This document shows positions 7,791-40,057 of a DNA stretch of 64,000 nucleotides, piece after piece. This DNA comes from Candidatus Hydrogenedens sp. (lineage in GTDB: Bacteria > Hydrogenedentota > Hydrogenedentia > Hydrogenedentales > Hydrogenedentaceae), in NCBI GenBank assembly GCA_049968235.1, contig JBMFRC010000008.1, forward strand, positions 1-64,000. The letters run 5' to 3'. The position numbers and the translations under genes were made by a program. The notes below the pieces were generated by a model. The model was given only the letters and a program-made list of their open reading frames with translations. It made no database searches and had not been told where the DNA came from. Positions within the stretch are counted from its first letter, which is position 1, and each line of letters starts with the position of its first letter.

Positions 7791-7794
7791 CGTT

Positions 7795-15198: not shown

Positions 15199-15204
15199 TC
15201 GCTT

Positions 15205-16593: not shown

Positions 16594-16725
16594 AAGCTTA
16601 TAATCTTATTATATGATTACAATCTATCTTAACATGATAAAATATCCATATAATAAAATATTATTCTATTAAATGTACGCTACGCAAAGTGTTAATCGGG
16701 CATATTAAACAGAAACACGTGTGAC

Positions 16726-19377: not shown

Positions 19378-20789
19378 ATTACGGTAGATAGATAAAACAA
19401 ATGCTGGTCAACATCCGCATCCGTTGCTACAAATCCGAAAGTATCCTTCCGGACATCGTTCCCCCAACGATATACATAGGCTGCATCAATATTAATACGG
19501 TTCTTTATAAGACACCCGGCACCTAATGTAATCCCATAATAATTGTCCACAGAACCATCTCCTTTTCCAAGACCAAACCAGCGGTCAGGTCTTCCGCTGG
19601 AAGGCTCCGGGTCATAAAAGGCACCTACACGAACACTTGGCAAAAGGGATTGTCTCGGTTTGTTCGGATTAAAGAATAAATACTCCGCACCTATCCGAAC
19701 AGTATAAGTAGCATCATGAGGGCTCCAATCCACAGGTAAATTAGATATTCCTGAACGCTTACGCATGAGCCAATTCCGATTTTCCGGGTCATGAATAACA
19801 AACTGGTCCCATTCGCAACGGGTAACATCAAAACTTAATGTCAATTTGTCATTAGGAAAACGATAAGCCACACCGATACCATACGAAGTAGGGAATGTAT
19901 ATTTCAGAGGTCTATGGCTATAGAAAAATCCCGGGAAGCCCACGCCTCGATTGATAATCCACCATTCTTCATAATCCACATCTGCAGTAAATTTTGAATG
20001 ATATACCGCCCCAATTTGCCATCTTTCACCGAGACGATACAAAGCCCCTAACGTAATATTCGTTCCTTCAAAATCGCGATATTTCTTTCGTATAACGGTA
20101 TGAGAAAAGGAAGCACGGTTTGTCTGTCCATTAATATTTAATGTTCGATATTCTTCCTGGTCTACAGTCCATTCATTATTTTGTATTAATGACTGATTCC
20201 AGAGATTTAGCACAATACCTACGGACAATCGGTTGGTTAGTTCAAAACCCAATGCAGGGGATAGCGTTGCCAATTGACCACTTTGTTTATATTTTACAAG
20301 CGAGTGTAAACCTGCTCTATTTCCTAATGCTAAAGCAGATATATCGCGATAAAAGAAATCCAGTTCCCGGGAAAAATCATACTTTGCCTGATAATTCAAA
20401 CTTAATACAAGATTGCGACCCTTAATAGTTCTCTGGAATGGATATACGAAACTCATGTAATTCAATTGGCTAAAATCAACTGAATAATCACCCTCTAATT
20501 CCGGATGGGGTAGAGATTGAAAACCTTCACCGATATATTTATAGGTATAGACCATAGAAAATTCCGGGCGTTCCAATTGCGTTAAACCGCCGGGATTCCA
20601 TGAAGCGGAAGTTGCATCATCTGCGATGGCAATAAAAGCGCCACCCATACCGATGGCACGAGCACCACTACCTATTACATTCGGAGAAGAATTAATCGGT
20701 ATGCCCTGTGACCATCCGTCATAGGTGGGAAAGCCGATTGTTAGTAAAAAAATGATACTACATAGTAATTGAAGGAAGACCTTTTTCAA
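19368..20789 (-). CDS. Outer-membrane beta-barrel protein (signal peptide, alternating amphipathic strands, C-terminal aromatic residue)
   Basis: N-terminal signal MKKVFLQLLCSIIFLL, and the protein ends ...LSTVIYF. It overlaps the upstream lipoprotein gene by 32 nt. Confidence 0.5.
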   Translation of the reverse strand: MKKVFLQLLCSIIFLLTIGFPTYDGWSQGIPINSSPNVIGSGARAIGMGGAFIAIADDATSASWNPGGLTQLERPEFSMVYTYKYIGEGFQSLPHPELEGDYSVDFSQLNYMSFVYPFQRTIKGRNLVLSLNYQAKYDFSRELDFFYRDISALALGNRAGLHSLVKYKQSGQLATLSPALGFELTNRLSVGIVLNLWNQSLIQNNEWTVDQEEYRTLNINGQTNRASFSHTVIRKKYRDFEGTNITLGALYRLGERWQIGAVYHSKFTADVDYEEWWIINRGVGFPGFFYSHRPLKYTFPTSYGIGVAYRFPNDKLTLSFDVTRCEWDQFVIHDPENRNWLMRKRSGISNLPVDWSPHDATYTVRIGAEYLFFNPNKPRQSLLPSVRVGAFYDPEPSSGRPDRWFGLGKGDGSVDNYYGITLGAGCLIKNRINIDAAYVYRWGNDVRKDTFGFVATDADVDQHLFYLSTVIYF

Positions 20790-22929
20790 TGGCTACGCCC
20801 TCCGAAGGTTTAGATGTATCTGTAATTACCTGCCCCCGGGCACTGGTCGACGAGACATTTACAATTCGGGTTTTGTAAAGAATGCCGTAGTCCGCGGGTT
20901 GTGTTATTTCACCCGTATCCGGGTCAATCCAGGCAGGAGAGGCTTCATAAAGGATAAGTGCATAAGTTCCCGGACGAATACCATCCTGCTCTGCCCAGTT
21001 AAATAATACTTCATATTTTGAATCCGAACCGCGATAATCTAAAACTTCCCCAGATAAACGTGGGAAGAAATCTGCTAATCGCCTTGCAAGCACATCACAC
21101 TTGCCTAACACAAGTTCTTTATTATTAACATTGTCAATAAAGCCATCAAAGATAGAGATAACCTCCGATGTCTCAGTACTTATTAACCGTAGTTTTACTT
21201 CTGCAGATTGTTCCCCTCTCGGGAACAGTTCACCCACAACAAAAACTTGTGCAGGCACCATTCGTCCAATCTCCAATGCTCTATTTGGGTCTGCCAAGCC
21301 AGCGGACAACTGTTGTTCATTCAACACATTTTGAAGATAAATTCTATCCAATATGTAGAAGCGTCCCTGCTTCCTTATACTCTCTTCCAGAACCGTTCTT
21401 AAATCACTTCCAAAACTATCTGTTGCGGTTCTGCCTGCAATAGCCAGTAATGCAATACTCATCTTGGTTTCATTCTTATTTACGAGAACAGGTTCTACCC
21501 TTACATCCATTTCCTTGCTTGCCTTCTTCCCCTGCGTATCCTGTGCCTCAATAGATAATTTTACCTTTCCCACACCTGATGGTAATAAGTCTGATGGTAA
21601 AGGAACGCGTTTGTTGAATGCCTCTTTAGGAGCACCTGTTAATTGTGTATATGGTTCTCCATTGATAAGCAGTGTTTGCACTGCAGAAGAACTGGTAATT
21701 TCCCCAGCAACACGAATAACGCGATTATGACGAGAGGGTTGTTCTGGTTTCGGAGTTTTTATATTGATGTCTATTCCTGAATCTTCGATTTGAGTTGATA
21801 ATATCTCACTAAGAATGGTTGCAGAGAACGATGATGTTGCTAAAGCGTGATTAATGCGGGTACTCCGTTGTGCAAAACGCCACAGAAGAGCCAATTGAGA
21901 ACGAGGTTCTCCTTTGAATGTTTTAATAGCAGTGCGTGTCTCATTACCTGCGGTATCACGAGCAGAAATAATAAAAACATTTTCGCCATCTTTCAAAGGT
22001 AAAACAGAACGGAATTCCCTACGATGTTCTCCATCGCCTTGCGATATAACCTGATTATTCAGAGAAATCTCTGCTATCCCCGTATCATCTACTACAACTC
22101 CTTCCAAAGCAAGTTCCGTGTCATTTATAACAAGATAATCTGTAGGTTTGAAAATACCGATACTTGGACCTGTAAGGTCAACCTGTGCCGATAAATTGTA
22201 ACTACTTTCTTTACCTGCAAGGTCGCGAACGGTTATAACGAAATCCTGTTTTCCCTCTTTGGTTTCGATAGGCTGTTCTATAAGGGCTGATTTTTCACCA
22301 TGTCGCAGGTATACAGATTGCTGATTCACAAAAATCTGCTCTATACCTATATCATCTGAACATTCTATTTTCAAATGATTATTTGCTTCACGAACAATCA
22401 TCGAAGAGGCATTTTTTTTATTTCTATCTTTTGTTATCTCCGCACTTATTTCAACTAGTTCTGCCTTTACTTTCGGCGGTTCACGGTCCTGCAATTCACC
22501 TTTCGATATGCGTTCCTTAATAATCATATCCAGGTAGTATCTTGCCCGTTCCGTATCTACCTGGGACAAAGAATTTCGCAATAATGTTTCTGCCTCCGAT
22601 AACTGTCCTTTCTTAAATAAAGTAATACCTAATTCACGATTCGGGAAATACTCAACAAAATGTAAACCGTAGGTACGTGCCTGCCATGTATCTCGTGAAC
22701 GACTTTGCAATGCGGTTCGTAAATCCTGTTCCGCTTCGTTCAAAAAGCCACCGGATAAAAACGAACAACCACGTTCATAGTAGTTCCACCATCTACCATG
22801 AAAAACTCCTGAAGTTACACCATAAGTCTTTCCCCCCACTGTGTAATTATCTGACGGTGAGGTTTGACAGCCAATAAAAATAAAAAGACTCATCAATATA
22901 ACCAGTAAATTATAATATCCTTTTCTCAC
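20758..22929 (-). CDS. Large lipoprotein with a TPR-like N-terminal region, central Ig-like repeats, and a C-terminal CsgG/TolB-N-like domain
   Basis: Lipobox ...FIGC. The C-terminal IALLAIAGR...RFYILDRIYLQNVLNEQQLS resembles the CsgG / LpoB-type fold. Confidence 0.45.
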   Translation of the reverse strand: MRKGYYNLLVILMSLFIFIGCQTSPSDNYTVGGKTYGVTSGVFHGRWWNYYERGCSFLSGGFLNEAEQDLRTALQSRSRDTWQARTYGLHFVEYFPNRELGITLFKKGQLSEAETLLRNSLSQVDTERARYYLDMIIKERISKGELQDREPPKVKAELVEISAEITKDRNKKNASSMIVREANNHLKIECSDDIGIEQIFVNQQSVYLRHGEKSALIEQPIETKEGKQDFVITVRDLAGKESSYNLSAQVDLTGPSIGIFKPTDYLVINDTELALEGVVVDDTGIAEISLNNQVISQGDGEHRREFRSVLPLKDGENVFIISARDTAGNETRTAIKTFKGEPRSQLALLWRFAQRSTRINHALATSSFSATILSEILSTQIEDSGIDINIKTPKPEQPSRHNRVIRVAGEITSSSAVQTLLINGEPYTQLTGAPKEAFNKRVPLPSDLLPSGVGKVKLSIEAQDTQGKKASKEMDVRVEPVLVNKNETKMSIALLAIAGRTATDSFGSDLRTVLEESIRKQGRFYILDRIYLQNVLNEQQLSAGLADPNRALEIGRMVPAQVFVVGELFPRGEQSAEVKLRLISTETSEVISIFDGFIDNVNNKELVLGKCDVLARRLADFFPRLSGEVLDYRGSDSKYEVLFNWAEQDGIRPGTYALILYEASPAWIDPDTGEITQPADYGILYKTRIVNVSSTSARGQVITDTSKPSEGVAIEKGLPSITM

Positions 22930-23067
22930 ATCGAACTCCCTGAACTTTGTTTTTATATTTTCTGTTCCTTTATTACTAATTTTACCATTTATTATAAAAA
23001 AATGAGATAAAATTTTGTTAGAAATTTTTAAAATATTATAGTTTTAATTATATCTTAAAACGAATCT

Positions 23068-24012
23068 ATGCAATATATAATTTTTGTTACATTATTTATT
23101 TTACTTCAAAATCAACCTATCACGATAGAAACCATAAATTACTTAAATTCCAATGAATTTGCTTGTGGTTTTAATCTTACTACTGTTCGTCCTATGGATA
23201 AACCGAATACTCTCGGAACTCTTACTTTACCCTCTCCCCCACAGATTGAACAGAGTCCTATATATCGTTTAGCACAGTGGGCAACAAATTTTCCGTTATA
23301 TTCTGGCGTCTTTACAAAAGCAGGAGAAAATACCTGGATTGCAAGGAATGAAGCGAAAAAAAACGTTTTGCATAAAAAAGATAACCTTTGGAGTATTGTT
23401 TTGAATAGTAATGGAATTACCGAATATCAAGGGAAGTTACGGAAATATGGAGAACCCTGGCCTCATCTCTTGATTGAAAAGGCATTCCCTGAAGGAATAA
23501 AAATAACAGGAAATAATCTGGCTTTTAATCTGGAATTTAGAATTACGAATTGTATATGTGATGATAGATTAAAAGAGAACATCGACCCAACATTACATAC
23601 CGCACAAATTTCCGCTTTCTGGACAGTGAAAAATAACAACCCGAATAGTAAAGATTATAAAGAGTTCTTCTGGCTTGGATTACCTCTTTTTGATGCACGT
23701 TATCCCATCCCTCCTGAGTATATAAACATAGACATAGGGTCTACCTATACAACCAACAAACTGATTACGGTAATTGATGGAAAGCGATTTTATGAAGATA
23801 GTACAGGTGATGGAGATAGGAATAAACTGAATACTCTGCTAACCCCCCTTTTTGAAGAGGCATTAAACAAAGGTCAAAAACGTGGATATTTAACCAAATC
23901 ACACATTGAAGATTTTATCCTTACCTCATTCAATTTAGGTTGGAAAATTACAGGACCCTATAACGTTGAAATTGAAATAAGAAACCTTTCACTGAATTGT
24001 GATAGAAAATAA
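23068..24012 (+). CDS. Hypothetical secreted protein (signal-peptide-like N-terminus)
   Basis: 314-aa ORF with a hydrophobic N-terminus and no recognisable motifs. It is adjacent to the BNR protein gene. Confidence 0.4.
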   Translation: MQYIIFVTLFILLQNQPITIETINYLNSNEFACGFNLTTVRPMDKPNTLGTLTLPSPPQIEQSPIYRLAQWATNFPLYSGVFTKAGENTWIARNEAKKNVLHKKDNLWSIVLNSNGITEYQGKLRKYGEPWPHLLIEKAFPEGIKITGNNLAFNLEFRITNCICDDRLKENIDPTLHTAQISAFWTVKNNNPNSKDYKEFFWLGLPLFDARYPIPPEYINIDIGSTYTTNKLITVIDGKRFYEDSTGDGDRNKLNTLLTPLFEEALNKGQKRGYLTKSHIEDFILTSFNLGWKITGPYNVEIEIRNLSLNCDRK

Positions 24013-24038
24013 CGACAAAACATAGAAGGGGCAAAACG

Positions 24039-25147
24039 ATGAACAAATCTTTATTATTTATTGGGTTAGCCCTGCTTACTCTGACATCATTTGGAGAACG
24101 ATGGATTCATCCTGCAGTAGAAACACTGGATATAGGACATAATCCTCCGTTTGTTATTCTCGCGATGGTAGTCTGGGAACAATAGATGCAGAAGGTTTCC
24201 GTGTAAGTAAAGATGATGGAAAAACATGGTCTGAACTCGTCCCTGTCTGCAAAGGTTTAGATGTTGAAGAACCTGCGTCCTATTATCTCCTGCGGATAAA
24301 AAACAATACACTCGTTTTGGTATATCTGAATTTCATTGGTAAAAAATTTGACTGGGATGAAAAGAACAAAGAACCTAAAGAAGGATGTGAATTAGAAGTT
24401 TGGGCGATACGAAGCCTTGACGAAGGGAAAACATGGGTAGATAATCAATGCATCCTTGACGGATATAACACCAACATTTTCGCATTGATACAAACCCGTT
24501 CCGGAAGGATTATAGCACCTTTTGACCATTTGACCAGCAATCCGGGGCATTTTATGATATGTTCCCTCTATTCGGATGATGAAGGGAAAACATGGCAAAG
24601 AAGTAACTGGATTGATATAGGAGGACATGGACATCACGACGGGGCATTAGAACCTACTCTTGCAGAACTGAGCGATGGACGATTGCTTATGTTGATTCGA
24701 ACCAGTTTAGACCAATTTTGGCAGGCAATTTCAGAAGATAACGGGAAATACTGGCGAATTATTCAGCCAAGCGGAATACAGGCAAGTAATTCTCCCGGCT
24801 ATTTATTGCGATTGTCAAATGGGAAACTGGTCCTCGTCTGGAATCAACTTAATCCGGAAGGACGGACTTATTCTAAAAGCGTTATGCCTCAACATACAGA
24901 ATTCCTTTCCTCATGGCATCGTGAAGAACTATCCATTGCCTTTTCAGATGACGATGGCAAAACATGGACAAAACCCGTCGTTATAGCACGGCAAACTGGT
25001 GGTCAATTAAGTTATCCTTATATTTTTGAACGCCGTCCAGGTGAATTGTGGATTATTCCCGGCTTCGCATTTCAAAAAATGTGGGATGAACCTCTCCCCT
25101 TACGAATGAAAATAAACATAGATACATTTTACAATGCAATAAAATAG
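24039..25147 (+). pseudogene. BNR/Asp-box repeat (sialidase-like, GH33-fold) protein disrupted by a +1 frameshift near 24160-24185
   Basis: An ATG with RBS at about 24039 encodes a signal peptide, MNKSLLFIGLALLTLTSFG..., and stops at about 24183. A second frame, open from about 24143, continues RDGSLGTIDAEGFRVSKDDGKTW... into the track ORF 24317..25147. Four S-x-D-x-G-x-T-W boxes are present. Confidence 0.5.
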
Positions 25148-25608
25148 ACTATACACACGAACATTTTCTCAATCACAATGCTGGACAAGGATAAACAACC
25201 TATAATTAGGATTGAGAAATAGGACAGAAAAAATATATGGAATAGCATATTTGCTAAAAGATAGCCCACAAACTCCCACACATGTCGGAAACAATAAGAA
25301 TAATGCAACATACATAAAAACTATGTTTTCCTAAAAATATAAGAACAAAATGAAAAGTAAGTATTTTTCAACTGCATAGTTCGCAGATAACTAAAAAATT
25401 CCCTGGCAAAGGAAGCATGAGCATAAGATTGAACAATGAAAAGGGAATATTTCCTATGAATGAGATGAATTAAATTATTTTTTATGTTTACATAAAGAAC
25501 ACAGAGGAAAATAAGGAGAACAACGAACAATTAATTCTATACTTACCCCTTTTTGATTGTATCTTAAAAACTATGTATGCAAGCCAACAAATCATCGGCT
25601 AAAACAAA

Positions 25609-26274
25609 TCAAACACCCCTTACATTCTCACCCCAGATAATTCGATGTAATTGTATCTGTAACCGCACAGGCAAACCATCTTGCAAAATCCAATGTGCAA
25701 ATTCCTGTAAAGATATACGCCCGGCAACAGGTGAGAATAAGATAGCACGACATTTTTTGACTAACTGAAACTCATTAATCTTCTGAACTGCAAAATCATA
25801 ATCATTTCGGTCCGCAATGACAAACTTTACCTCATCAAGAAACGGGTTCAAATAACCGATATTCTCCCACAACATCCGTTTTTCCATACCACTTGAAGGA
25901 CATTTAATATCCATAACCTTAATCACCCCCGGCGGAACATTTTTGATGGAACATGCACCATTGGTTTCCAATAGAACCGTATACCCCATCTCCATAAGAG
26001 TTTTCATTAACGAAAAAACAGATTTCTGTAACAACGGCTCTCCCCCGGTAATTTCCACCATCTTACACTTATATTGAAAAATAATTTTCAATATCTCCTC
26101 CATAGTAAAAAAAGTACCCTTCTCAAAGGCATACCTCGTATCACACCATGAACAATTTAAATTACACCCAGACAACCGAATGAAAATCATCGGACACCCC
26201 GCCCATGTAGATTCCCCCTGTATACTATAAAAAATCTCACATATTTCTAACTTGCTATCTTTATTTAAATCCAT
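25609..26274 (-). CDS. queE: 7-carboxy-7-deazaguanine synthase QueE (radical SAM)
   Basis: EIFYSIQGESTWAGCPMIFIRLSGCNLNCSWCDT matches the QueE N-terminus with its CxxxCxxC cluster motif. The start is chosen at the internal Met (MDLNK) rather than the track start at 26340. Confidence 0.8.
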   Translation of the reverse strand: MDLNKDSKLEICEIFYSIQGESTWAGCPMIFIRLSGCNLNCSWCDTRYAFEKGTFFTMEEILKIIFQYKCKMVEITGGEPLLQKSVFSLMKTLMEMGYTVLLETNGACSIKNVPPGVIKVMDIKCPSSGMEKRMLWENIGYLNPFLDEVKFVIADRNDYDFAVQKINEFQLVKKCRAILFSPVAGRISLQEFAHWILQDGLPVRLQIQLHRIIWGENVRGV

Positions 26275-26434
26275 ATAAAACTCTGCAATCAAGTAAGAGC
26301 ACTCTATAATAAAATGTGCATATAAAATTGAGAATAGCAAGTGTATTATATTTAAAGCAAAGCAAGGTTGAATCGTAGTACTTTTTTATCTTTAGATGGA
26401 TAGATACTATTTTTTACATCTTTCATTATAAATT

Positions 26435-26453
26435 TGGTAATATAAAATATTAC
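26435..26453. promoter_or_regulatory. Perfect 19-bp palindrome GGTAATAT-AAA-ATATTACC in the divergent queE / R-M-like intergenic region. It could be an operator or a hairpin.
   Basis: Read directly from the sequence. The 8-bp arms are exact reverse complements, about 45 nt upstream of the GAGG RBS at 26489. Confidence 0.4.
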
Positions 26454-26498
26454 CGAAATGTTTATGGTTTTTAACTATTCTTAATTATGAGGTTTTTT

Positions 26499-26914
26499 AT
26501 GGATAAGAAAGAATTAGGTTCAAAAACAGCTAAGGGGGGGGATTTGCCAATGAAAAAAGGATATGTGAGAAATTCAATTCCTGGGCAAAAGATAAAGAAG
26601 CGCAAGAATGGCTTCAAATAATGGGTTATAATCTTGACAAAATTAAATCTGTAAAAGCGATTCAAATACCTACCAAAATAAAAAAAGGAAATTTTAATAA
26701 ATTTTGTATAAAAGAAGATGAATATGAAGAATTTGTCAAATATAAAAAAGCAGATGCGCAAATAAAAATTTGTATAAAAGTTGGGGACATCATAAAAATC
26801 GAAAATCTATCTCTAAAAAAAGCAAATCAAGATGCTGACTACAATCAAATAGATAAAAGAACAGTTAATAATTACCAGGAAATGTGGGGATTTAGTGACG
26901 AAATATCATACTAG
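26499..26914 (+). CDS. Putative phase-variable or frameshifted ORF. The ATG at 26499 (RBS GAGG) runs into a G8 tract at about 26534-26541 and stops after 40 codons. One extra G fuses it to the frame of the 97-aa track ORF 26621..26914.
   Basis: Frame analysis from the sequence: frame 0 gives MDKKELGSKTAKGGDLPMKK...K*. Frame 2 is open from the G tract: GGFANEKRICEKFNSWAKDKEAQEWLQIMGYNLDK... The ATG at 26621 has no RBS. Confidence 0.35.
26534..26541 (+). repeat. Homopolymeric G8 tract inside the 5' end of the first ORF of the R-M-like operon (candidate slipped-strand phase-variation site)
   Basis: gctaaggggggggatttgcc read directly from the sequence. It is the only long G run noticed in an otherwise AT-rich islet. 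Confidence 0.6.
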
Positions 26915-26953
26915 CTCAAACTTTTCACAGGCGAATTAAGCCCCAAAAAAGAA

Positions 26954-27352
26954 ATGAAACAGGGGAATCTAAAAGAACTAAAAACCATAAGTTTTAGGGA
27001 TGCAAGGCGATTATTCCTTGACGAAATTCCTCCAAAAGCACAAAATAAAATTATTAACTTTTTTAAGAAGAATAGAATTAGAGTGGTGAGTGATATAATA
27101 AAAGGGAGAGGAGGACTATCAGCAAATTGGATGTTAGTAACAAAATATGATAAGAAACATGATAAAACAGCATGGATACTAAAAGATATAAATTTTGTGA
27201 TGAACTTTTTTGGAAACGGAAAGATATGCATTTCACCTAAGGGCAGTCTATATATTGGAAAAATCACAATGCAAAGAAAAGGCGGGACTCCAGATTCAAC
27301 AAAAATACAGTTTAAAATCAAACCTTGTGAGTTATTTGGCAGTGGAGAATAA
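26954..27352 (+). CDS. Hypothetical 132-aa ORF in the same frame as 26621..26914, separated from it by only a TAG codon. It ends 2 nt before the methyltransferase start. It is a possible C-terminal part of a decayed restriction endonuclease.
   Basis: Frames 26621 and 26954 are both ≡2 mod 3. The only intervening stop is the TAG at 26912-26914. The composition is very AT-rich, like the MTase gene. Confidence 0.35.
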   Translation: MKQGNLKELKTISFRDARRLFLDEIPPKAQNKIINFFKKNRIRVVSDIIKGRGGLSANWMLVTKYDKKHDKTAWILKDINFVMNFFGNGKICISPKGSLYIGKITMQRKGGTPDSTKIQFKIKPCELFGSGE

Positions 27353-27354
27353 AT

Positions 27355-28152
27355 ATGGAAGTTGATAAAGTTTATTTAGGAGACTGCATAAAAATAATGC
27401 AAGATATGCCGGATAATTGCGTCGATTTAGTATTTGCAGACCCTCCTTTCAATATTGGAATAAAATACGATGTCCATGATGATAATATGTCTTATGAAGA
27501 ATATTATAAATGGTCAATGCAATGGATAAGTGAATGTTATAGATTATTAAAGGAAAATGGTAGTATTTATATTGCCATTGGAGATGAATTTGCCGGAGAA
27601 ATAAGTATTATCTTAAAAAAAATTGGCTTCTATTTTAGAAACTGGATTATCTGGTATTACACTTTTGGACAGAACCAACGCAAAAAATTTAATCGGGCTC
27701 ATACACATATTTTGTACTTCACAAAGGATAGAACGAAATTTACATTTAATGACAAAGAGATACGAATTCCATTTGCCCGACAAATTGTGTATAGAGATAA
27801 AAGAGCAAATCCATTGGGTAAAATTCCCGATGATGTCTGGCAGTTCTCACGGGTATGTGGCACATTTAAGGAAAGAATAGGAAATCATCCCTGCCAGATG
27901 CCGGAAGATTTACTAGAACTGATAATTAGAACAAGTTCAAATATAGGAGATATTGTATTAGACCCATTTGGAGGGACAGGAACAACATCAGTCGTGGCTA
28001 AAAAGTTAAACCGAAAATATATCACAATAGAAATTTCAAAAAAATATTATGAAATTATCTTAAAAAGGTTAAATGGCGAAATTAAAGGAATGAACAAAAG
28101 CAACTCTGTAGAGAAAACATATCAAAAATCTTTGTTTGATTTTGATTATTAA
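27355..28152 (+). CDS. Beta-class DNA methyltransferase (N6-adenine or N4-cytosine; DPPF motif IV at the N-terminus, FGGTGTT motif I at the C-terminus)
   Basis: VDLVFADPPFNIG and HPCQMPEDLLELIIRTSSNIGDIVLDPFGGTGTTSVVAKKLNRKYITIE, in PF01555-type order. Confidence 0.85.
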   Translation: MEVDKVYLGDCIKIMQDMPDNCVDLVFADPPFNIGIKYDVHDDNMSYEEYYKWSMQWISECYRLLKENGSIYIAIGDEFAGEISIILKKIGFYFRNWIIWYYTFGQNQRKKFNRAHTHILYFTKDRTKFTFNDKEIRIPFARQIVYRDKRANPLGKIPDDVWQFSRVCGTFKERIGNHPCQMPEDLLELIIRTSSNIGDIVLDPFGGTGTTSVVAKKLNRKYITIEISKKYYEIILKRLNGEIKGMNKSNSVEKTYQKSLFDFDY

Positions 28153-28176
28153 GACCCAAATTTTGTAGAGATATAA

Positions 28177-29448
28177 TCACCTACCAAATATATTTTTTAT
28201 TGCTTGAAGGTAAGCGTAGCCGTGAACAGTGTCAGGTTCGAGGTAACTACCTTCGGTCCATTCGTTCCATGCATTGATGGTTAATGTTTTGTTGCAGATA
28301 GGGTTGTTATCTAAAAATGTGCGACATTTTTCTAAAGCGGATTGAAATTGTTCGGGGGTATTGCCTGATAAAATGGGCGTAAATGGATAGCCTTTGTTTT
28401 CGAAGGGGTCGTCCTGTTTACAACGGGGTGATGAATCCCAGCCCATGGAGACATTGGGGAAATAAGGAACAGTAAATTGTTGGGAGCGTTCTGCCCAGAT
28501 TTTATCAAATCGATTTGCCACTTCTGTATAGGGCGTTTCGGGGAATGTATTTAATGGAGTATCCAGAACCCATGCGTATGAGGTTACACTATCTATGGTT
28601 AAGTAGTGAATTAGTTCCGCCGGGGTCATTTTTCCTTGAACACATTTTGGCATGCGATTTTCAATGTTAACCACATTAATGTGTACACCGGGAAAACCTT
28701 TAGCAATTGCATTTTTCTGGAAATTATCCAGTGATTTTTTAGCCATTTCTAAACCGCCAACACCATCGACAAAGGTATGAATTTCATAAATAGAGAATAC
28801 AGGTTTGCCGTAGATAGTCCAATAGGCAGGGTCAGAAAAATATTTATCAATCACATAATTAGTAATTTGCTCAAAGGTTTCTGGAGTTACTTCGCCAGGA
28901 TATAGCACTTCCGGTGATTGAATCTTTGCTAAGGACGCCGGATGTATATTTATCCATGTATGGTTAGCCCACATCACGGCGAAACGAACGCGATTATGAT
29001 TCCGTGCTTTAAGGTAGCCTTCGTCTAAACATCGCTGTAAAAAAGGTCCATCGTTATACCAGTACCAGTCGAACAGAAAAACATCAATCCCATGTTCCGC
29101 TGCGCTATCAATTTTCATTTCCATTACCTTAGGGTCTGCTTCATCTACATAACCCCACAGGGGAATCTTCGGCTGTTGATGCCCCGAAAAACGCGGTCTG
29201 GCATTTTTCACCAGTTCCCATTCCGTCCAATTTTGACCGTGAACTTTTTCATTTCGTTTGTCTATGTGATAATTTGGAAAATAGAAACAGGCAACGGTGT
29301 AATCACCTCTTGAATTTTTTATAGGTAACGATTTTCCCTGAGATGTTTCATCCGAGAAACAGGGTCTGCCCGTAAAATAAAAAAGAACAAGAAATAATAG
29401 AAAAATTTTGATACAGAAACATGTTGATAAATGATATTGTGCATACAT
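28177..29448 (-). CDS. Secreted Glyco_tran_WbsX-like (GH99-like fold) protein
   Basis: Signal peptide. ACFYFPNYH...NWTEWE...GYVDEADPKVMEMKIDSAAEHGIDVFLFDWYWY resembles the WbsX family N-terminal consensus. Confidence 0.55.
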   Translation of the reverse strand: MYAQYHLSTCFCIKIFLLFLVLFYFTGRPCFSDETSQGKSLPIKNSRGDYTVACFYFPNYHIDKRNEKVHGQNWTEWELVKNARPRFSGHQQPKIPLWGYVDEADPKVMEMKIDSAAEHGIDVFLFDWYWYNDGPFLQRCLDEGYLKARNHNRVRFAVMWANHTWINIHPASLAKIQSPEVLYPGEVTPETFEQITNYVIDKYFSDPAYWTIYGKPVFSIYEIHTFVDGVGGLEMAKKSLDNFQKNAIAKGFPGVHINVVNIENRMPKCVQGKMTPAELIHYLTIDSVTSYAWVLDTPLNTFPETPYTEVANRFDKIWAERSQQFTVPYFPNVSMGWDSSPRCKQDDPFENKGYPFTPILSGNTPEQFQSALEKCRTFLDNNPICNKTLTINAWNEWTEGSYLEPDTVHGYAYLQAIKNIFGR

Positions 29449-29468
29449 TTTCTTTTCCTTTCGTATGT

Positions 29469-30167
29469 TTATTTTTTTTGTTTCATTTCTTTCTTCATTA
29501 TAAACAAATAATTAAAGCCACGGAGAAAATAATTTCCGCGTTCTGCTTCGGTATGGTAGTGTCTTCTTTTTAATGTCCGATTATGTCGAACAACCGCAAT
29601 AATATCGATAGGGGTAAACCATTGTTCCATAATCGAAAACAATCGAAATCCAATGGGTGCAAAAGGTTTCTTTTTTTGATAAGAGTCACAACAATACAAA
29701 GCCATAAATCGTTGAGGTTTCAATATACGATAAATCTCACGGATGCATTGCTCCATAGATTTGTAATAAGTATCATCATTAGCACTCAAAGTGCCGATAC
29801 AACGCGGGTCATCGGAATAATGAATATTCGTACCATAAGGGGGGTCTATAAAAACAAAGTCAACACTTTCACTGCGTAACGGTATTTTTCGTGCATCCGC
29901 AGAAATAATATCATCCCGATAGGGACTTAAATCGAACCCGATAACCTTACGATGTAAATCTTTACACACATCAATAGTTGTCCCACTTCCACACATGGGG
30001 TCAACAACGAGGTCTTTTTCACGCGTATACCGCTGTAATAGATTCCAAATAATATACGAAGGAGTTGCGCCGGGATAATTCTGGTCTCCCTGCATACAGT
30101 CGCCATAATGTTGTGAGGGATAATCCCAGAGGGTCGTTGTCTGTAAACTTAATTCTGGTTTTCTCAT
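29469..30167 (-). CDS. Small SAM-dependent methyltransferase with a DPPY motif (amino-methyltransferase, DNA N6A/N4C or RNA m2G type). Motif I precedes motif IV.
   Basis: ATPSYIIWNLLQRYTREKDLVVDPMCGSGTT (motif X/I) is followed by VDFVFIDPPYGT (motif IV). 232 aa, with GC like the core genome. Confidence 0.6.
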   Translation of the reverse strand: MRKPELSLQTTTLWDYPSQHYGDCMQGDQNYPGATPSYIIWNLLQRYTREKDLVVDPMCGSGTTIDVCKDLHRKVIGFDLSPYRDDIISADARKIPLRSESVDFVFIDPPYGTNIHYSDDPRCIGTLSANDDTYYKSMEQCIREIYRILKPQRFMALYCCDSYQKKKPFAPIGFRLFSIMEQWFTPIDIIAVVRHNRTLKRRHYHTEAERGNYFLRGFNYLFIMKKEMKQKK

Positions 30168-30398
30168 AATTGGGTTATAAACTATAATCTTTGATTTGTA
30201 AATGGTTTTGATTAAGTATTAGTATTTTAAGGATTATGTAAAGATATTTTATAACAAAAAGGTGTAAACTTTTTTAAAATTTCACTCACTTGTGATATTA
30301 TAATATTCTAACACGGGCTTTTAAGATAAACCTGTAAAAAGAAGTTTTGGGTAGATAAAAATTTGTTGAATAAAACAGTTTGAATATGGAGAAGTTCA

Positions 30399-31394
30399 AT
30401 GAAAAAGTATTTTATTTTTGTGCTTGTTCTCGCAAGTAGTTTGCTGGTCGTGGATAGTTATGCACAGTGGACATGGACACCGCAGACCGGTAGATTTATT
30501 AATGTAAAGCGGATGCCTAAAGAGACCGCTGAACTGCAAATTGAGTATGCACGAAGTTTATATTTGCAAGGAAATTATAAAAAAGCCCTTAAAGAAACAG
30601 AGAAATTCTTTGATTTTTATGGACAGGACCCATTAGCAGACCAGAACTTGTTTTTACGTGGCGAAATTAAAATGGCTATGGAGAAATGGCTGGAAGCAGC
30701 AAAAGAATTTCAGAAATTGGTCTCTGGCTATCCCAGTTCAAAACTCTACGAACAAGCCATACAAAAGCAGTTTGAAATCGGTGATAAGTTATATGAACGT
30801 GGGTTAAAAAAGAGAAGTAAATTCTTATCCTTTTTCAAAGGGAAACCATTAAAACATGCAATAGAAGTTTATGGAATGGTTGTAAGTAACCAGCCATTTA
30901 TGCCTCGTTCTGCAGAAGCCCAGTATAAAATTGGACTTTGTCATCATGCAAGAAAGGAATATATTGAAGCGGGTTATGAATATCGCCGTGTTATAGAAAA
31001 TTATCCTCAATCCGATTGGGTAGACGATGCCCGCTATGGGTTAGCCCGATGCTATTATGAATCCTCCTTGCCACCCGAGTATGACCAGAGTAGAGCAGAA
31101 TTAGCAATAGAAGCCATTGACGAATTTTTAAAAATTTTTCCTGAAGATACTCGCGTAGAAGAACTTAAAGGATGGCGTCAAAAAATGCGGAACAATATAG
31201 CAGAACAAAAATTAATAGTAGCCCGTTATTATGAAAAACAGAGGAAGTTCGATTCGGCAAGGATATACTATCAATTAATATCTAACCAATATACAGATAC
31301 ACCATCCGCAGAAAAAGCCAATAAATGGTTGCAAGAAAACCCTGTAAAGATGAGTGATTTGAAAACTCAATTCGAGCAGGAGACAAAAAAATAA
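30399..31394 (+). CDS. TPR-repeat lipoprotein, BamD/YfiO-like
   Basis: Signal peptide plus multiple TPR-like repeats (YARSLYLQGNYKKAL...). It lies immediately upstream of the LptE-like and holA genes. Confidence 0.45.
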   Translation: MKKYFIFVLVLASSLLVVDSYAQWTWTPQTGRFINVKRMPKETAELQIEYARSLYLQGNYKKALKETEKFFDFYGQDPLADQNLFLRGEIKMAMEKWLEAAKEFQKLVSGYPSSKLYEQAIQKQFEIGDKLYERGLKKRSKFLSFFKGKPLKHAIEVYGMVVSNQPFMPRSAEAQYKIGLCHHARKEYIEAGYEYRRVIENYPQSDWVDDARYGLARCYYESSLPPEYDQSRAELAIEAIDEFLKIFPEDTRVEELKGWRQKMRNNIAEQKLIVARYYEKQRKFDSARIYYQLISNQYTDTPSAEKANKWLQENPVKMSDLKTQFEQETKK

Positions 31395-31984
31395 TGGATA
31401 CCGTAAAGAAAAAAAGAATTCTACTTTATGTGTCGATGCTATCTCTTTTTACCTTTTTATCTCTACTGAAGATAAATTGTGCTTATACAACAAAAGTTTC
31501 TTTAGACCCGCGGTATCAGACCGTTGCCGTATCTGGCTTTTACAACAAGTCATCCGAATATGATTTCCAGGCACCTCTCACCAATGCCCTAATACGAAAA
31601 TTTATTACAGATGGTCGTCTGAAAGTAGTAAAACCATCGGAAGCAGATTTGCTTATTGAAGGTGTTATACTGGATTACAAACGCAAGGGTCTGACATATG
31701 ATGCTAACGACGAGACTACACAATTTTTGATTGTAGTAACTGCTGGTGTTCGTGTAACAGACCAGCAGACAGGAAAAATACTCTGGCAGGAACCAATGAT
31801 GGCTGGTGAAAGTACTTACTTTACTCATGCCGCAGGACAGTCCTCCGACAGGCTTCGTGGAAATGTAGAAACCTTTCTGACTCCGGTTCGTTCTTTTGCC
31901 AGTGATGAAGAAAACAGAGCTGTTTCCGAAGCATTGGAACAACTGGCTTCGGATATTTTCTATCGGACCATTGAACCATGGTAG
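31394..31984 (+). CDS. lptE: LPS-assembly lipoprotein LptE-like
   Basis: 196-aa lipoprotein (lipobox LKINC) directly upstream of holA. This is the conserved lptE-holA synteny. The call rests on synteny and size more than on motifs. Confidence 0.45.
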   Translation: MDTVKKKRILLYVSMLSLFTFLSLLKINCAYTTKVSLDPRYQTVAVSGFYNKSSEYDFQAPLTNALIRKFITDGRLKVVKPSEADLLIEGVILDYKRKGLTYDANDETTQFLIVVTAGVRVTDQQTGKILWQEPMMAGESTYFTHAAGQSSDRLRGNVETFLTPVRSFASDEENRAVSEALEQLASDIFYRTIEPW

Positions 31985-32037
31985 TATAAGGAAATAGAAA
32001 ATACTATCTTCCTTTTATTTAGATTAAAGAATTTATT

Positions 32038-33066
32038 ATGGATATAAAACAATTCAAAAAAGTCTTGGCAAAAGAGGGACTACACACAAATTGTTTGCTT
32101 TTTTGTCCTGCTGTTTCCGGTAGTAAAGAAAGTTTTGAACCCGTTCTAGCAGAAGAAGTAATTGAAGAATTAACAAAAAGTTTTATCCCGGAAGGAACCG
32201 AATCCGTAGGATTACACACTTTTTATGGAGATGAAACTCGACTGGAAGAAATAGTGATGGAGTGTTCAACGCTTCCTTTTTTTTCTTCTCGTAAAGTGGT
32301 CATCGTCCGCAAATTTGAACTGTTGGACCGTAGTGAAAAAAGCGATGTTAAATCCATTCGCCCCATGCTGAACTATCTCCAGAATCCATTGGACACTACC
32401 TTATTACTGTGCGTGACAGAAACAGTAGATTCCCGCAAACCCTTATACAAAGCGTTTGCTTCAATTAATGGAGTAGTTGAGTGCCCAGCATTAAACAATA
32501 ATGAATTGAACGAATGGATAAAACAATATTTATACAGCAAAAAAAAGAAAATTTCTCCCGACGGATTGGAAGAATTCGTATCAAGATGCGGCACAAAACT
32601 GAGTGATATTCGGAATGCTTTAACTTTATTACTTGGTTTTGTAGGGGATAAAGATTCTATAACAATTAAAGATGTGCTGAATTCCTGTGCAGATGTTGCA
32701 GAAGAGTCTATCTGGAGTTTGACAGATGCAATAGCCCTTGGCAATATGAAAATGTCCTGGCTCATACTTAATGATTTAATAAATCAAGGGAAAGAACCAC
32801 CTGAAATTGTTTCGGTAATCCACTGGCTCCTCGAAAATGCATATAAAACGACAGAACTTTCCGAAGAAAAACCTCGAAGTAATTTTGTTATGAGTAAAGT
32901 AACCCCCCTTGCACAGCGATTTGGAATTAAAAAATTAGTTACCGCAATGAACCTCTGCAATGAGACTACTTATGCAATGCGACAAACAGGAACTGATGAA
33001 AGAACCGCATTAGAATTGCTCGTTCTCAAACTTTCTTATATCCCACCGAAGCAAAAGATAAATTAA
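32038..33066 (+). CDS. holA: DNA polymerase III delta subunit HolA
   Basis: 342 aa with the clamp-loader delta N-terminal organisation and a C-terminal helical domain. Synteny with lptE supports the call. Confidence 0.7.
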   Translation: MDIKQFKKVLAKEGLHTNCLLFCPAVSGSKESFEPVLAEEVIEELTKSFIPEGTESVGLHTFYGDETRLEEIVMECSTLPFFSSRKVVIVRKFELLDRSEKSDVKSIRPMLNYLQNPLDTTLLLCVTETVDSRKPLYKAFASINGVVECPALNNNELNEWIKQYLYSKKKKISPDGLEEFVSRCGTKLSDIRNALTLLLGFVGDKDSITIKDVLNSCADVAEESIWSLTDAIALGNMKMSWLILNDLINQGKEPPEIVSVIHWLLENAYKTTELSEEKPRSNFVMSKVTPLAQRFGIKKLVTAMNLCNETTYAMRQTGTDERTALELLVLKLSYIPPKQKIN

Positions 33067-33240
33067 AACCAATATTATCAAAGGGACTGTTTATTTTTCC
33101 GATATAATACAGATATCTTATCCGTGTTATATTCCCATTGGTGTAATTTTCTTTCCATCTTATTCATCCATCCATCCCATTTTTCTTTTTTTTAACTACC
33201 TTTGCATTAACAATCACAACACATTGCGGGATGATAGTTT

Positions 33241-35250
33241 TTACTCCTTTATTTTTTCATAGATAACAAAAAGAGCAGACGGTTTCTCTGGGAGTGTTAG
33301 TGGGACACCATATTCCATTAATTCTTTCCCTGTGAGCTCTAAAGGTTGTGCATTTTTATAAACTGGGGTGATACGGTATTTTGCTTTTAATTCCAAACCA
33401 TGTAAGGGCAATCTTATACTCTCTGTCTTGGCTTCCTCACGACGGAATGCTTGCACAACACCTGTACCTCTACTTGCTACATTAAATTGCCATGCTATCC
33501 ACACATTTTTTTCAAGTGAATACGGAGTCAACGGATAGTAATCTCCATAATAATTTTCAGCGTAAAGTTTTCGTTGTTCTATAATATTCACTAATCTTTG
33601 CCAATCTATGTCATCCCGTCTCTGGTCAAAACAGGCAGTAAAACTGGGACACAATACACTCATCACTTCATAGTCTGATATTTTAGAAGTCCCTGTGCCA
33701 AAAAACGGAAACCACTCGGACAATGCCCAGGTATGGCATTGATTCCCAGTAGGTTCCATAATATAATCACTTCGTAATAAAGGCACAGCTCGTCGTAAAG
33801 TTTCTAAATCATTTCGTCTACCACCACTGGCACAGGAATCTATCAACATATTAGGATGACGACGCAACAATTCATCCCAGTATGCGAAATAACCTTCCAC
33901 ATGCCGTATTTCGGTAATCCCCTGTCTATCCGGAGTATCATTCTTTCGCCAGAAATCCAGCGGGTCCATATTGAAATCCTGCCGGTATAAATCAATTCCC
34001 TCTTTTGTAAGGATACTGTCTATATGGTTTATTAGCCATTCTCTTACCTGTGCATCTCCAAGGTTCAATAATCCCCCTCCCTTCCCACCAAGAATCCACT
34101 CTGGATAATTTTCTGTAAGCCATGTCCCCGCATGCACGCGTTCTGGCTCAAACCATACAAGTATTTTGACCCCTTTGTTGTGGGCAAAATCGGAAATAGG
34201 TTTAAATCCTCCAGGGAATCGAGTTTGGTCAACTTCCCATGTCCCTGTTTTAGGCCATTGCCCGTCGCAGGGATACCACCCGGCATCCATCCACCAGTAG
34301 TCAAGAGAAAAACCCCGCTGAAGATATTTTTCAATAAACATTAATTGTGTATCAGTAGTAGCATTAACCATTTCGCCATATTGATGAGAACTGCATGCGA
34401 AAAGTATCGGGAGTTTTGGAGGGTTTCCATAAGGATGTGGCAAATTATGTGCAATCATCCATTGCCTCCATAGGTTCTGTCCGCGTTGCTTATCACCGGA
34501 ATAGAACAAAAGCACAACCATAGGTCCGCGAACTTCTTCTCCAGGATATAAAGTGAAATGAGTAAGTTCTTGACCTCCTTGAATAAATAAAACACCATCC
34601 TTATCCCGATAAAACCGACAGGACCACTGCCCTGCCCAACTGATAGCGAAAATCAGCCCCGCATTCTCTCTTTGAAAATTGAAATAAGGAAATGTTATCT
34701 GTGTTGGTCGTCCCCCTGTATTTGCAAGTTTTATTTCAGAATCCGTATTTATCGGTTCAATTATAGGTTCATAACTATCCGCAGTGCAGTTATCCCCTTT
34801 ATTCCGATGAAGGACAGTTCGCTGATTCTTAAACTCGGTAAATATGGTATCTATTGTTTTTAACTCTTGCAGTATAGGGGTATTTTTATCTCCACCGTTC
34901 TTATAGTAAGCAGTCCATTCAATTACAGGGAAGTGTAAATATTGAACAGCCTTATATCGCACAACCAAACCTGTTTTGGTATGGGTTAATTTCAAGGTAG
35001 AGGTTATTATATCATTCCCTTTGTCTGTTGTAATTTCCCGTGTCCATTCTTGTAAATCCTGATTTGCGGGGGTATCACCAATAAGCAATGAGCCAGGAAA
35101 TAAATCTGCAGACTGGGATACTTTCTCACCGAACCAGCGTTCGAAAATTGTGCTGGCTGATGATAATTCTTCCGGCAAAGGACTCGCTTGTGCATATAAT
35201 AAACAACTTAAACTCACCAGAAAGGCATGTAGAATAAATATTCTTTTCAT
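33241..35250 (-). CDS. Secreted clan-D glycoside hydrolase, GH36-like alpha-galactosidase / alpha-N-acetylgalactosaminidase
   Basis: Signal peptide. YWWMDAGW (a DDGW-like motif) and the CASGGRRND signature (the xSGGGR motif of GH36). Confidence 0.6.
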   Translation of the reverse strand: MKRIFILHAFLVSLSCLLYAQASPLPEELSSASTIFERWFGEKVSQSADLFPGSLLIGDTPANQDLQEWTREITTDKGNDIITSTLKLTHTKTGLVVRYKAVQYLHFPVIEWTAYYKNGGDKNTPILQELKTIDTIFTEFKNQRTVLHRNKGDNCTADSYEPIIEPINTDSEIKLANTGGRPTQITFPYFNFQRENAGLIFAISWAGQWSCRFYRDKDGVLFIQGGQELTHFTLYPGEEVRGPMVVLLFYSGDKQRGQNLWRQWMIAHNLPHPYGNPPKLPILFACSSHQYGEMVNATTDTQLMFIEKYLQRGFSLDYWWMDAGWYPCDGQWPKTGTWEVDQTRFPGGFKPISDFAHNKGVKILVWFEPERVHAGTWLTENYPEWILGGKGGGLLNLGDAQVREWLINHIDSILTKEGIDLYRQDFNMDPLDFWRKNDTPDRQGITEIRHVEGYFAYWDELLRRHPNMLIDSCASGGRRNDLETLRRAVPLLRSDYIMEPTGNQCHTWALSEWFPFFGTGTSKISDYEVMSVLCPSFTACFDQRRDDIDWQRLVNIIEQRKLYAENYYGDYYPLTPYSLEKNVWIAWQFNVASRGTGVVQAFRREEAKTESIRLPLHGLELKAKYRITPVYKNAQPLELTGKELMEYGVPLTLPEKPSALFVIYEKIKE

Positions 35251-35290
35251 ATAAAAGCATCCCTTTTTTCAGAATTTTTTGTCCATCGAT

Positions 35291-36840: not shown

Positions 36841-36846
36841 TGTATT

Positions 36847-37959: not shown

Positions 37960-38081
37960 ATATCGATACTCCTTTCATCTTCTTGTTAATAAAAAACTAT
38001 AAAAAATTATATTGTACTTTTATTTGTTATTCATATTATTGGTTTTTATCATGAAATTCAAGTTTAAATGTAGGTCATTTT

Positions 38082-38522: not shown

Positions 38523-38549
38523 GTATTATTGAATAGGTTTCCTTTTTTC

Positions 38550-40016: not shown

Positions 40017-40057
40017 CCCACCTATCCTTCGTTATTATTGTATTCTACAACAAACTA

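What the first reader, a model, noticed from the sequence alone, without database searches (positions are those of the whole stretch)
26621..28152. In-frame TAG splits a roughly 270-aa ORF that ends 2 nt before an intact beta-class DNA methyltransferase: decayed (or recoded) restriction endonuclease next to an orphaned MTase
ORFs 26621..26914 and 26954..27352 are in the same frame, separated only by the TAG at 26912-26914. Together with the G-tract exon they would give a roughly 270-285-aa protein, whose stop is 2 nt from the start of the DPPF methyltransferase. That is the size and position expected for a Type II REase in an REase-MTase operon. A frameshift combined with a premature stop, upstream of an intact MTase, is the usual decay path that leaves solitary MTases. 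Alternatively the two pieces are a small C-protein-like or specificity factor and a separate partner.
Basis: partly seen in the sequence, partly recalled or inferred. Interest (0 to 1): 0.6.

Follow-up and report, generated by a model that had tools for sequence, protein, structure and literature searches.

The report
Broken HinP1I-type restriction gene beside its methylase
This is an ordinary restriction-modification gene pair in a Candidatus Hydrogenedens genome. Its DNA-cutting enzyme was recently knocked out by a slip in a run of eight G's plus a Trp-to-stop mutation, which leaves the partner methylase alone and itself starting to decay.

Summary
ORFs 26621..26914 and 26954..27352 share a frame and are separated only by TAG 26912-26914. 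The stop at 27350-27352 lies 2 nt before the methyltransferase ATG at 27355.

Joined to the N-terminal piece (ATG 26499, lost at the G8 run 26534-26541), the pieces give a 283-aa protein. It aligns end to end with the solved endonuclease R.HinP1I (E 3e-57) and with intact 283-aa orthologues (81-83% identity) at the same locus in other Ca. Hydrogenedens genomes.

Those orthologues have TGG (Trp) at the TAG and AAAGGTGGA in place of the G run. TAG is a normal stop here (6 of 44 genes).

Two near-identical MAGs show the decay in progress:
- One has G8, TGG and a TAA stop at codon 65 of the methyltransferase.
- The other has G7, TAG and an ancestral methyltransferase.
- The window's methyltransferase carries S140F at a residue invariant in 49 of 49 orthologues.

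The R-M pairing is conserved across many phyla, so the methyltransferase is an orphaned cognate partner, not orphan by design.

Recoding and the C-protein alternative are rejected. Interest is low to moderate.

The parts
26499..26541 (+). 5' end of the REase pseudogene: ATG 26499, preceded by GAGG at 26489-26492, then codons 1-14 (MDKKELGSKTAKGG) in frame 0
   Evidence: It aligns to residues 1-14 of intact orthologues and of HinP1I.
26534..26541 (+). G8 homopolymer, the frameshift site. The in-frame lengths would be G6 (KGGF, as in all orthologues) or G9.
   Evidence: Orthologues have AAAGGTGGA or other runs of 5 or fewer G. The run is G8 in L001 and G7 in L083.
26540..26911 (+). REase codons 14-137 in frame 2, holding E18, D85, S104, K106, Q116 and K119. 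After the frameshift, frame 0 runs on to TAA 26619-26621, which overlaps ATG 26621.
26912..26914 (+). In-frame TAG, derived from TGG (Trp138) by a G-to-A change at 26913
   Evidence: W in all 12 closest homologues. G in L001 and A in L083.
26915..27352 (+). REase codons 139-283 plus the TAA stop, including the QRKGG recognition loop (K260)
27355..28152 (+). Cognate beta-class N6A/N4C DNA methyltransferase, 265 aa and open. GGAG lies 9-12 nt upstream of its ATG. It carries the derived S140F change (T at 27773). Codon 65 (27547-27549, TTA) is TAA in strain L001.
   Evidence: Pfam PF01555, 217 bits. PDB RsrI and MboIIA matches. SNPs.

Best explanation
Window 26499..28152 is a resident two-gene Type II restriction-modification operon of a Candidatus Hydrogenedens genome. 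It consists of a HinP1I-family monomeric PD-(D/E)XK-type endonuclease followed 2 nt later by its cognate beta-class N6A/N4C methyltransferase. The endonuclease gene is a recent pseudogene with two lesions. (1) A lineage-specific poly-G run at the conserved Lys-Gly-Gly codons has slipped to G8, which is out of frame. Translation from the true start therefore ends after 40 residues. (2) Trp138 TGG has mutated to TAG. Nothing else in the gene has degenerated, so the inactivation is young. With no endonuclease to guard against, the methyltransferase is under relaxed selection. It is still open in this genome but carries a unique S140F change, and in a 99.95%-identical sister strain it has a nonsense codon. 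Shown: the homology, both lesions, their derived state, the strain polymorphism and the conservation of the R-M pairing. Inferred: the order of events (the frameshift came first, because all three strains are out of frame), loss of endonuclease activity, relaxed selection on the MTase, and the target. The target is possibly GCGC with m4C protection, because the HinP1I base-contact residues are conserved.
For: The repaired 283-aa protein matches HinP1I end to end (1ynm E 2.9e-57; PF11463 E 1.7e-53). There are 2,934 database homologues, and the best full-length ones (283 aa, 81-83% identity) come from Ca. Hydrogenedens. Those orthologues lie at the same locus (radical-SAM | R | M | WbsX | second MTase | BamD/YfiO | LptE | holA), with M starting 2 nt after R. 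R and M diverge from these orthologues about as much as the flanking genes do. Orthologues have Trp at the TAG and no G run. L001 (GCA_049969095.1) differs from window 17704-30507 by 7 SNPs: TGG instead of TAG, TAA at MTase codon 65, and Ser140. L083 (GCA_049971155.1) has G7, TAG and the ancestral MTase. S140 is invariant in 49 of 49 orthologues and is the only conserved column where the window's MTase deviates. The window's R deviates at no column that is at least 95% conserved. Of 70 species-representative genomes carrying this R, 15 have it disrupted, and at least 9 of those keep an intact cognate-type MTase. About 40 other homopolymers of 6-9 nt, including a C8, sit in frame inside intact ORFs of the window.
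Against: No expression or activity data exist. The three genomes are MAGs, probably from one study, so homopolymer lengths could carry consensus error. L083 also has an A8-to-A9 indel that breaks a neighbouring gene. S140F falls where distant beta-class MTases have Tyr, so it may be harmless, and the MTase may be retained for a function of its own. Three SNPs out of 7 within the 1.65-kb operon is only a marginal enrichment (binomial p about 0.05, my calculation). The specificity is not established: the best solved MTase relatives are adenine-specific, which would conflict with a GCGC target.
Confidence: 0.9

Rival explanations
1. The poly-G run is a contingency (phase-variation) switch: slipped-strand mispairing reversibly turns the endonuclease ON (G6 or G9) and OFF (G7 or G8), and the window happens to be an OFF variant.
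For: The homopolymer lies in the 5' coding region. Its length differs (G8, G8, G7) among strains at least 99.87% identical, so the run is hypermutable.
Against: No ON-length allele was seen in three strains or in the protein database, where the best full-length hit is 83% identical. The TAG in the window and in L083 makes the switch irrelevant. L001 has a dead MTase, which would be lethal if R could switch back ON. The run is absent from 75 other copies of the gene, where G runs are 5 or shorter, so it is not a conserved device.
Confidence: 0.07
2. Recoding: the TAG is read as an amino acid (suppressor tRNA or alternative code), and/or the G8 run drives programmed -1 frameshifting or transcriptional slippage, so a full-length enzyme is still made.
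For: G GGG GGG is formally a slippery heptamer, and a -1 shift would give AKGGGF followed by the correct frame (sequence).
Against: TAG terminates 6 of 44 long ORFs in the window. No tRNA gene is in the window. Orthologues and strain L001 encode TGG there, so TAG is a simple point mutation. Orthologues need no frameshift. L001 tolerates a nonsense MTase, which argues that no active R is made from the G8 allele.
Confidence: 0.01
3. Assembly or sequencing artefact: the gene is intact in the organism, and the G8 and/or TAG are consensus errors.
For: Homopolymers are error-prone. L083 differs from the window by exactly two homopolymer indels.
Against: All three separate MAG assemblies, each with distinct SNPs, are out of frame. 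TAG is present in two of the three. All other long homopolymers in the window, including a C8 inside an 852-aa ORF, are in frame. A base substitution is not a typical assembly error.
Confidence: 0.04
4. The two ORFs are separate small proteins, for example a controller (C) protein or specificity subunit plus a partner.
For: Each piece has its own ATG (26621 and 26954).
Against: Both map collinearly onto one single-chain enzyme. Residues 41-137 carry the catalytic D...K region and residues 139-283 carry the recognition loop. No homologue exists as two genes except in other disrupted copies. There is no separate Pfam or NCBIfam match.
Confidence: 0.01

Closest known systems
R.HinP1I (Haemophilus influenzae P1; G^CGC; PDB 1YNM, 2FKC) and the structurally related R.MspI
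   Same: Full-length collinear homology (E 2.9e-57). D85 and K106 align with HinP1I D62 and K83, which I recall from Yang et al. 2005 as catalytic, and the D-to-K spacing is the same. The base-contact residues Q93, K96 and K223 named in PMC7026639 correspond to Q116, K119 and K260, which are invariant in 57 orthologues. By homology the enzyme is expected to be a monomer that nicks each strand in turn (PMC4081073).
   Different: It is about 36 residues longer, with inserts at residues 57-82 and about 149-160. The residue corresponding to Q81 is Ser, and the Ser before the catalytic Asp is Ala. The partner is a beta-class N6A/N4C MTase, whereas the HinP1I and MspI systems use m5C MTases (my knowledge, not tested here). 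The gene here is a pseudogene. Its specificity is unknown.
Solitary MTases left by REase decay, e.g. M.Hpy99III (GCGC) homologues in Helicobacter pylori (PMC8706393)
   Same: The MTase is retained after the cognate endonuclease is lost or inactivated. The same pattern recurs in this family, with 15 of 70 species disrupted.
   Different: In H. pylori the orphan is conserved and has regulatory roles. Here a near-identical strain has already lost the MTase to a nonsense codon, which argues against an acquired essential role.
Phase-variable R-M genes with homopolymeric tracts (Haemophilus, Neisseria, Helicobacter and Moraxella mod/res genes; e.g. PMC6902483)
   Same: A poly-G run in the 5' coding region whose length differs between near-identical strains.
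   Different: No ON allele was observed, the run is not conserved in orthologues, and secondary nonsense mutations have fixed the OFF state.
Beta-class amino-MTases M.RsrI, M.MboIIA and CcrM (PDB 1EG2, 1G60, 6PBD)
   Same: Same Pfam family (PF01555), same motif order (IV before I) and 1e-28 to 1e-32 matches.
   Different: Identity is low. The NCBIfam equivalog cut-offs are not reached (200 bits against 292 for the adenine-specific equivalog NF008572; 138 against 830 for CcrM). The base modified (N6A or N4C) and the target are unknown.

Membership tests
R.HinP1I restriction endonuclease family (Pfam PF11463) | Sequence match above the Pfam gathering score | tested here: met
   181.6 bits against a cut-off of 25 for the repaired translation.
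R.HinP1I restriction endonuclease family (Pfam PF11463) | Collinear full-length alignment to the solved enzyme | tested here: met
   Query residues 3-56 and 83-279 align to 1ynm residues 3-56 and 60-245, E 2.9e-57.
R.HinP1I restriction endonuclease family (Pfam PF11463) | Catalytic motif SD-X18-Q-X-K plus N-terminal Glu18 (recalled from Yang et al. 2005; that paper is not held in the library) | tested here: inconclusive
   E18, D85 and K106 are present with the same spacing and are invariant in 57 orthologues. The Q position is Ser104, also invariant, and the Ser before the Asp is Ala. This looks like a clade variant rather than decay.
R.HinP1I restriction endonuclease family (Pfam PF11463) | Base-contact residues Q93, K96 and K223 (PMC7026639) | tested here: met
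   They correspond to Q116, K119 and K260, all conserved.
R.HinP1I restriction endonuclease family (Pfam PF11463) | Uninterrupted ORF, i.e. a functional member | tested here: not met
   G8 frameshift and TAG at codon 138. It is a pseudogene of the family.
R.HinP1I restriction endonuclease family (Pfam PF11463) | Cleavage of G^CGC | not testable with these tools
   This needs enzymology of a repaired clone.
Type II R-M operon (cognate R and M) | R and this MTase type adjacent and co-inherited across taxa | tested here: met
   A cognate-type MTase (above 60% identity) lies in the locus next to R in 33 of 53 species-representative genomes with an intact R and in all syntenic Hydrogenedens loci where the contig extends past R.
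Beta-class N6A/N4C DNA MTase (Pfam PF01555) | Pfam match above cut-off, with motif IV (DPPF) N-terminal to motif I (FGGTGTT) | tested here: met
   217.2 bits against a cut-off of 26.7. The motif order is read directly from the translation.
NF008572 (PRK11524) adenine-specific and CcrM adenine MTase equivalogs (NCBIfam) | Score above the curated equivalog cut-off | tested here: not met
   200.2 bits against 292, and 138.2 against 830.
MTase that is orphan by design (Dam/CcrM-like) | Orthologues lack an adjacent endonuclease | tested here: not met
   Orthologues sit next to an intact HinP1I-like R.
Phase-variable contingency locus | Homopolymer in the coding region with length variation among close strains | tested here: met
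   G8, G8 and G7.
Phase-variable contingency locus | Both ON and OFF lengths present, and the gene otherwise intact | tested here: not met
   No G6 or G9 allele was found. TAG is present in the window and in L083.
Stop-codon recoding (TAG sense) | TAG not used as a terminator, and in-frame TAGs at conserved sense positions in many genes | tested here: not met
   6 of 44 long ORFs end in TAG. The single in-frame TAG is a polymorphic TGG-to-TAG change.

The most novel reading that the evidence does not exclude
The G run is a newly arisen hypermutable tract that acted as a reversible OFF switch for a Type II endonuclease in a Hydrogenedentota population. The three strains would then record alternative outcomes of that switch in near-real time: R killed by a nonsense codon, or M killed by a nonsense codon. 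In addition, the widespread uncharacterised clade it belongs to pairs a HinP1I-like nuclease with an amino-MTase rather than an m5C MTase. If the target is GCGC, that implies m4C protection of GCGC.
Probability: 0.12. Interest if true: 0.4.

Novelty: new member of a known kind. Interest (0 to 1): 0.25.

Why it matters
For annotation, 26499..27352 should be called as one HinP1I-family pseudogene, not as two or three hypothetical proteins, and the MTase should be called a recently orphaned cognate partner. Biologically it is a clean, datable small example of how R-M systems die. R is lost first, here at a slippage-prone homopolymer, and then independent nonsense and missense hits fall on R and M in strains that differ by less than 0.15%. 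It also points to a large uncharacterised clade of HinP1I-like enzymes paired with beta-class amino-MTases, with thousands of metagenomic members across bacteria and archaea. The specificity of that clade could be of practical interest. None of this challenges current understanding.

Tried and rejected
- A metagenome scan for the strain's G-run context allowing G6-G11 found nothing, so tract-length variation could not be sampled beyond the NCBI MAGs.
- Exact-protein look-ups of the window's 97-aa fragment and of its MTase found no indexed contig. The 40-aa frameshift product is on record only in L001.
- The genome-contig scan did not return the window's own species. The best match was 71% identical.
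- The promoter/terminator scan of 26200-28400 was no better than shuffles, so I make no claim about operon regulation.
- Four-base palindrome avoidance, in the window and in 246 kb of pooled loci carrying the system, did not single out one target. GATC, CTAG, GGCC, AGCT, GCGC and ACGT are all depleted.
- The two HinP1I structure papers are not held in the library, so the catalytic-residue assignment rests on my memory. The base-contact residues are cited from PMC7026639.
- NCBIfam has no model matching the endonuclease.
- I judged structure prediction unnecessary given E 1e-57 to a solved structure.
- I considered treating S140F as inactivating and rejected that, because distant family members have Tyr at that position.

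Full report
**Observation.** The finding's coordinates are exact.
- ORF 26621..26914 (97 aa) and ORF 26954..27352 (132 aa) are in the same frame.
- A single-frame translation of 26501-27352 is open except for the TAG at 26912-26914.
- The TAA at 27350-27352 is followed by two bases and then the ATG (27355) of a 265-aa protein. In that protein ADPPF precedes FGGTGTT, which is the beta-class motif order.
- Upstream, ATG 26499, with GAGG seven bases before it, opens MDKKELGSKTAKGG in another frame.
- The only G run of 7 or more in the 64-kb window, G8 at 26534-26541, lies exactly where the two frames meet. One more G or two fewer would fuse them.

**What it is.**
- Fusing the pieces, with X at the TAG, gives a 283-aa protein.
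- It matches the solved endonuclease R.HinP1I over its whole length (PDB 1ynm, E 2.9e-57; query 3-56 and 83-279 against chain 3-56 and 60-245) and Pfam PF11463 (181.6 bits, cut-off 25).
- All three fragments are therefore parts of one single-chain, PD-(D/E)XK-type Type II endonuclease gene.
- The downstream gene is a PF01555 N6A/N4C MTase (217 bits). Its closest solved relatives are M.RsrI, M.MboIIA and CcrM. It scores below the NCBIfam equivalog cut-offs for the adenine-specific MTase model NF008572 (PRK11524) and for CcrM.

**Relatives.**
- A search of 5.8 billion proteins gave 2,934 homologues of the endonuclease.
- The closest full-length ones (283 aa, 81-83% identity) are from Candidatus Hydrogenedens.
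- Their contigs show the same neighbourhood as the window: radical-SAM gene | R | M (ATG 2 nt after the R stop) | WbsX glycosyltransferase | second MTase | BamD/YfiO | LptE | holA.
- R and M differ from these orthologues about as much as the flanking housekeeping genes do: R 81-84%, M 88-91%, flanks 82-95%. The operon is therefore a long-term resident inherited vertically in the genus.
- In the alignment, every close homologue has Trp (TGG) where the window has TAG.
- The DNA at the Lys-Gly-Gly codons is AAAGGTGGA or similar.
- In 75 other copies of the gene the G run there is never longer than 5. Both lesions are therefore derived, and the G run is specific to this lineage.
- A scan of one genome per species found 70 loci in many bacterial and archaeal phyla.
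- The same MTase type (64-77% identical) lies directly beside R in most of them.
- 53 R genes are intact, 2 are cut by contig ends, and 15 are disrupted. At least 9 of the disrupted ones retain an intact cognate-type MTase.
- The MTase is thus a cognate R-M partner, not an orphan by design. Loss of R with retention of M recurs in this family.

**Strain comparison.** This is the most informative result. Two NCBI MAG contigs are nearly identical to the window.

| Genome | Match to window | G run | Codon 138 of R | MTase |
|---|---|---|---|---|
| Window | n/a | G8 | TAG | Leu65, Phe140 (derived) |
| L001 (GCA_049969095.1) | 99.945% over 12.8 kb, 7 substitutions | G8 | TGG | Leu65 to TAA stop, Ser140 |
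| L083 (GCA_049971155.1) | 99.87% over 5.4 kb | G7 | TAG | Leu65, Ser140 (ancestral) |

- The L001 data come, and the L083 data.
- Ser140 is invariant in 49 of 49 orthologues. It is the only column conserved at 95% or more where the window's MTase deviates.
- All three strains are out of frame at the G run, and none shows an in-frame length. The frameshift is therefore the shared first hit.
- The TAG in R, the TAA in M and S140F in M are later, lineage-specific hits.
- The window's R shows no other deviation at conserved columns, so the inactivation is recent.
- Distant beta-class MTases have Tyr at the position of S140, so I do not claim that S140F is inactivating.

**Rivals.**
- *Recoding* is excluded for practical purposes. 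TAG ends 6 of 44 long ORFs in the window, no tRNA is encoded there, and the TAG is a polymorphic point mutation of TGG.
- *Programmed frameshifting or reversible phase variation at the G run* is not needed by any orthologue. It is moot in the window because of the TAG. It is also hard to reconcile with L001, where the MTase is dead and any active endonuclease would be lethal.
- The G8/G7 difference nevertheless shows that the run is hypermutable.
- *Assembly error* is unlikely. Three assemblies agree on an out-of-frame run. About 40 other homopolymers of 6-9 nt in the window, including a C8 at 44553-44560 inside an 852-aa ORF, are all in frame.
- L083's A8-to-A9 indel in a neighbouring gene is a caution about that assembly.
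- *Two separate small proteins* is excluded by the collinear alignment to a single-chain enzyme.

**Mechanism and specificity (inferred).**
- By homology, the ancestral enzyme would be a monomeric nuclease that cuts a short palindrome one strand at a time (PMC4081073, PMC7026639).
- The HinP1I residues reported to read the G and the G:C pair (K96, Q93, K223; PMC7026639) correspond to K119, Q116 and K260, which are invariant in 57 orthologues.
- E18, D85 and K106 are also invariant. These correspond to E18, D62 and K83 of the SD-X18-QXK motif as I recall it from Yang et al. 2005. That paper could not be read here.
- The Gln of the motif is an invariant Ser in this clade.
- This suggests a GCGC-like target, which would make the partner an N4-cytosine MTase.
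- However, the MTase's best solved relatives are adenine-specific, and palindrome-avoidance statistics do not discriminate. The target remains open.
- In the present genome, translation from ATG 26499 ends at TAA 26619-26621 after 40 residues.
- Any re-initiation at the overlapping ATG 26621 would give a 97-aa fragment lacking both E18 and the recognition loop.
- The MTase has its own GGAG upstream and can be translated independently.

**Comparison with known systems, and novelty.**
- This is a pseudogenised member of the HinP1I family in a standard Type II R-M operon. Its decay route (R first, then M drifting) is well known, for example from orphan GCGC MTases in H. pylori (PMC8706393).
- Mildly new points are the pairing of a HinP1I-like nuclease with a beta-class amino-MTase in a very large uncharacterised clade, and the strain-level snapshot of alternative secondary knock-outs.
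- I rate it a new member of a known kind, with interest 0.25.

Noticed in passing
window 24039..25147 (junction near 24155-24170): A BNR/sialidase-like gene appears to be frameshifted. A 48-aa signal-peptide ORF (24039..24185) sits in one frame, and the BNR-repeat body is open from 24143 in another frame. No homopolymer lies at the junction (CTCGCG). L001 and L083 show the same split in their gene calls.
   Followed up: partly
window 1..64000: Several 4-bp palindromes are strongly depleted against a Markov expectation. Observed/expected ratios are GATC 14/191 (0.07), CTAG 0.12, GGCC 0.14, AGCT 0.22, GCGC 0.30 and ACGT 0.31. This suggests a long history of exposure to many 4-cutter R-M systems.
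   Followed up: partly
window 29469..30167 (-): A second PF01555-type MTase (232 aa) has motif I (DPMCGSGTT) ahead of motif IV (DPPYG), the opposite order to the first one. It is 91-94% conserved at the same place in all syntenic Hydrogenedens loci and has no adjacent nuclease, so it is probably a solitary MTase.
   Followed up: partly
L006 5881-5883, L007, L008 (three samples): In another Hydrogenedens lineage the endonuclease start codon is ATA instead of ATG, with no alternative in-frame start before Met41. The rest of the gene is open. This is either an independent inactivation or a weak non-canonical start.
   Followed up: partly
window 23356..23363; L083 307: An A8 run inside the 314-aa ORF 23068..24012 is A9 in strain L083, which splits that gene in two there. 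This is either real slippage or a homopolymer error in that assembly.
   Followed up: partly
window 17704..30507 vs L001: All 7 substitutions between the two strains change the protein: 5 are missense and 2 are nonsense, and none is synonymous.
   Followed up: yes
L077 2417-2776 and 4001-4441; L063, L064, L075, L079: Other species carry disrupted copies of the same endonuclease. In L077 the gene is split by about 1.2 kb of inserted DNA, and the others have frameshifts or multiple stops. Several of these (L063, L064, L077) keep an intact cognate-type MTase alongside, whereas L075 and L079 do not.
   Followed up: partly
window 44553..44560: This C8 run (G8 on the coding strand) is the only other G/C run of 7 or more in the window. 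It lies in frame inside the intact 852-aa ORF 42769..45327 (-).
   Followed up: yes
window 12378..13333: A stretch of about 950 bp has no ORF of 120 aa or more, and an A9 and a T7 run sit back to back at 12413-12428. I did not examine it.
   Followed up: no
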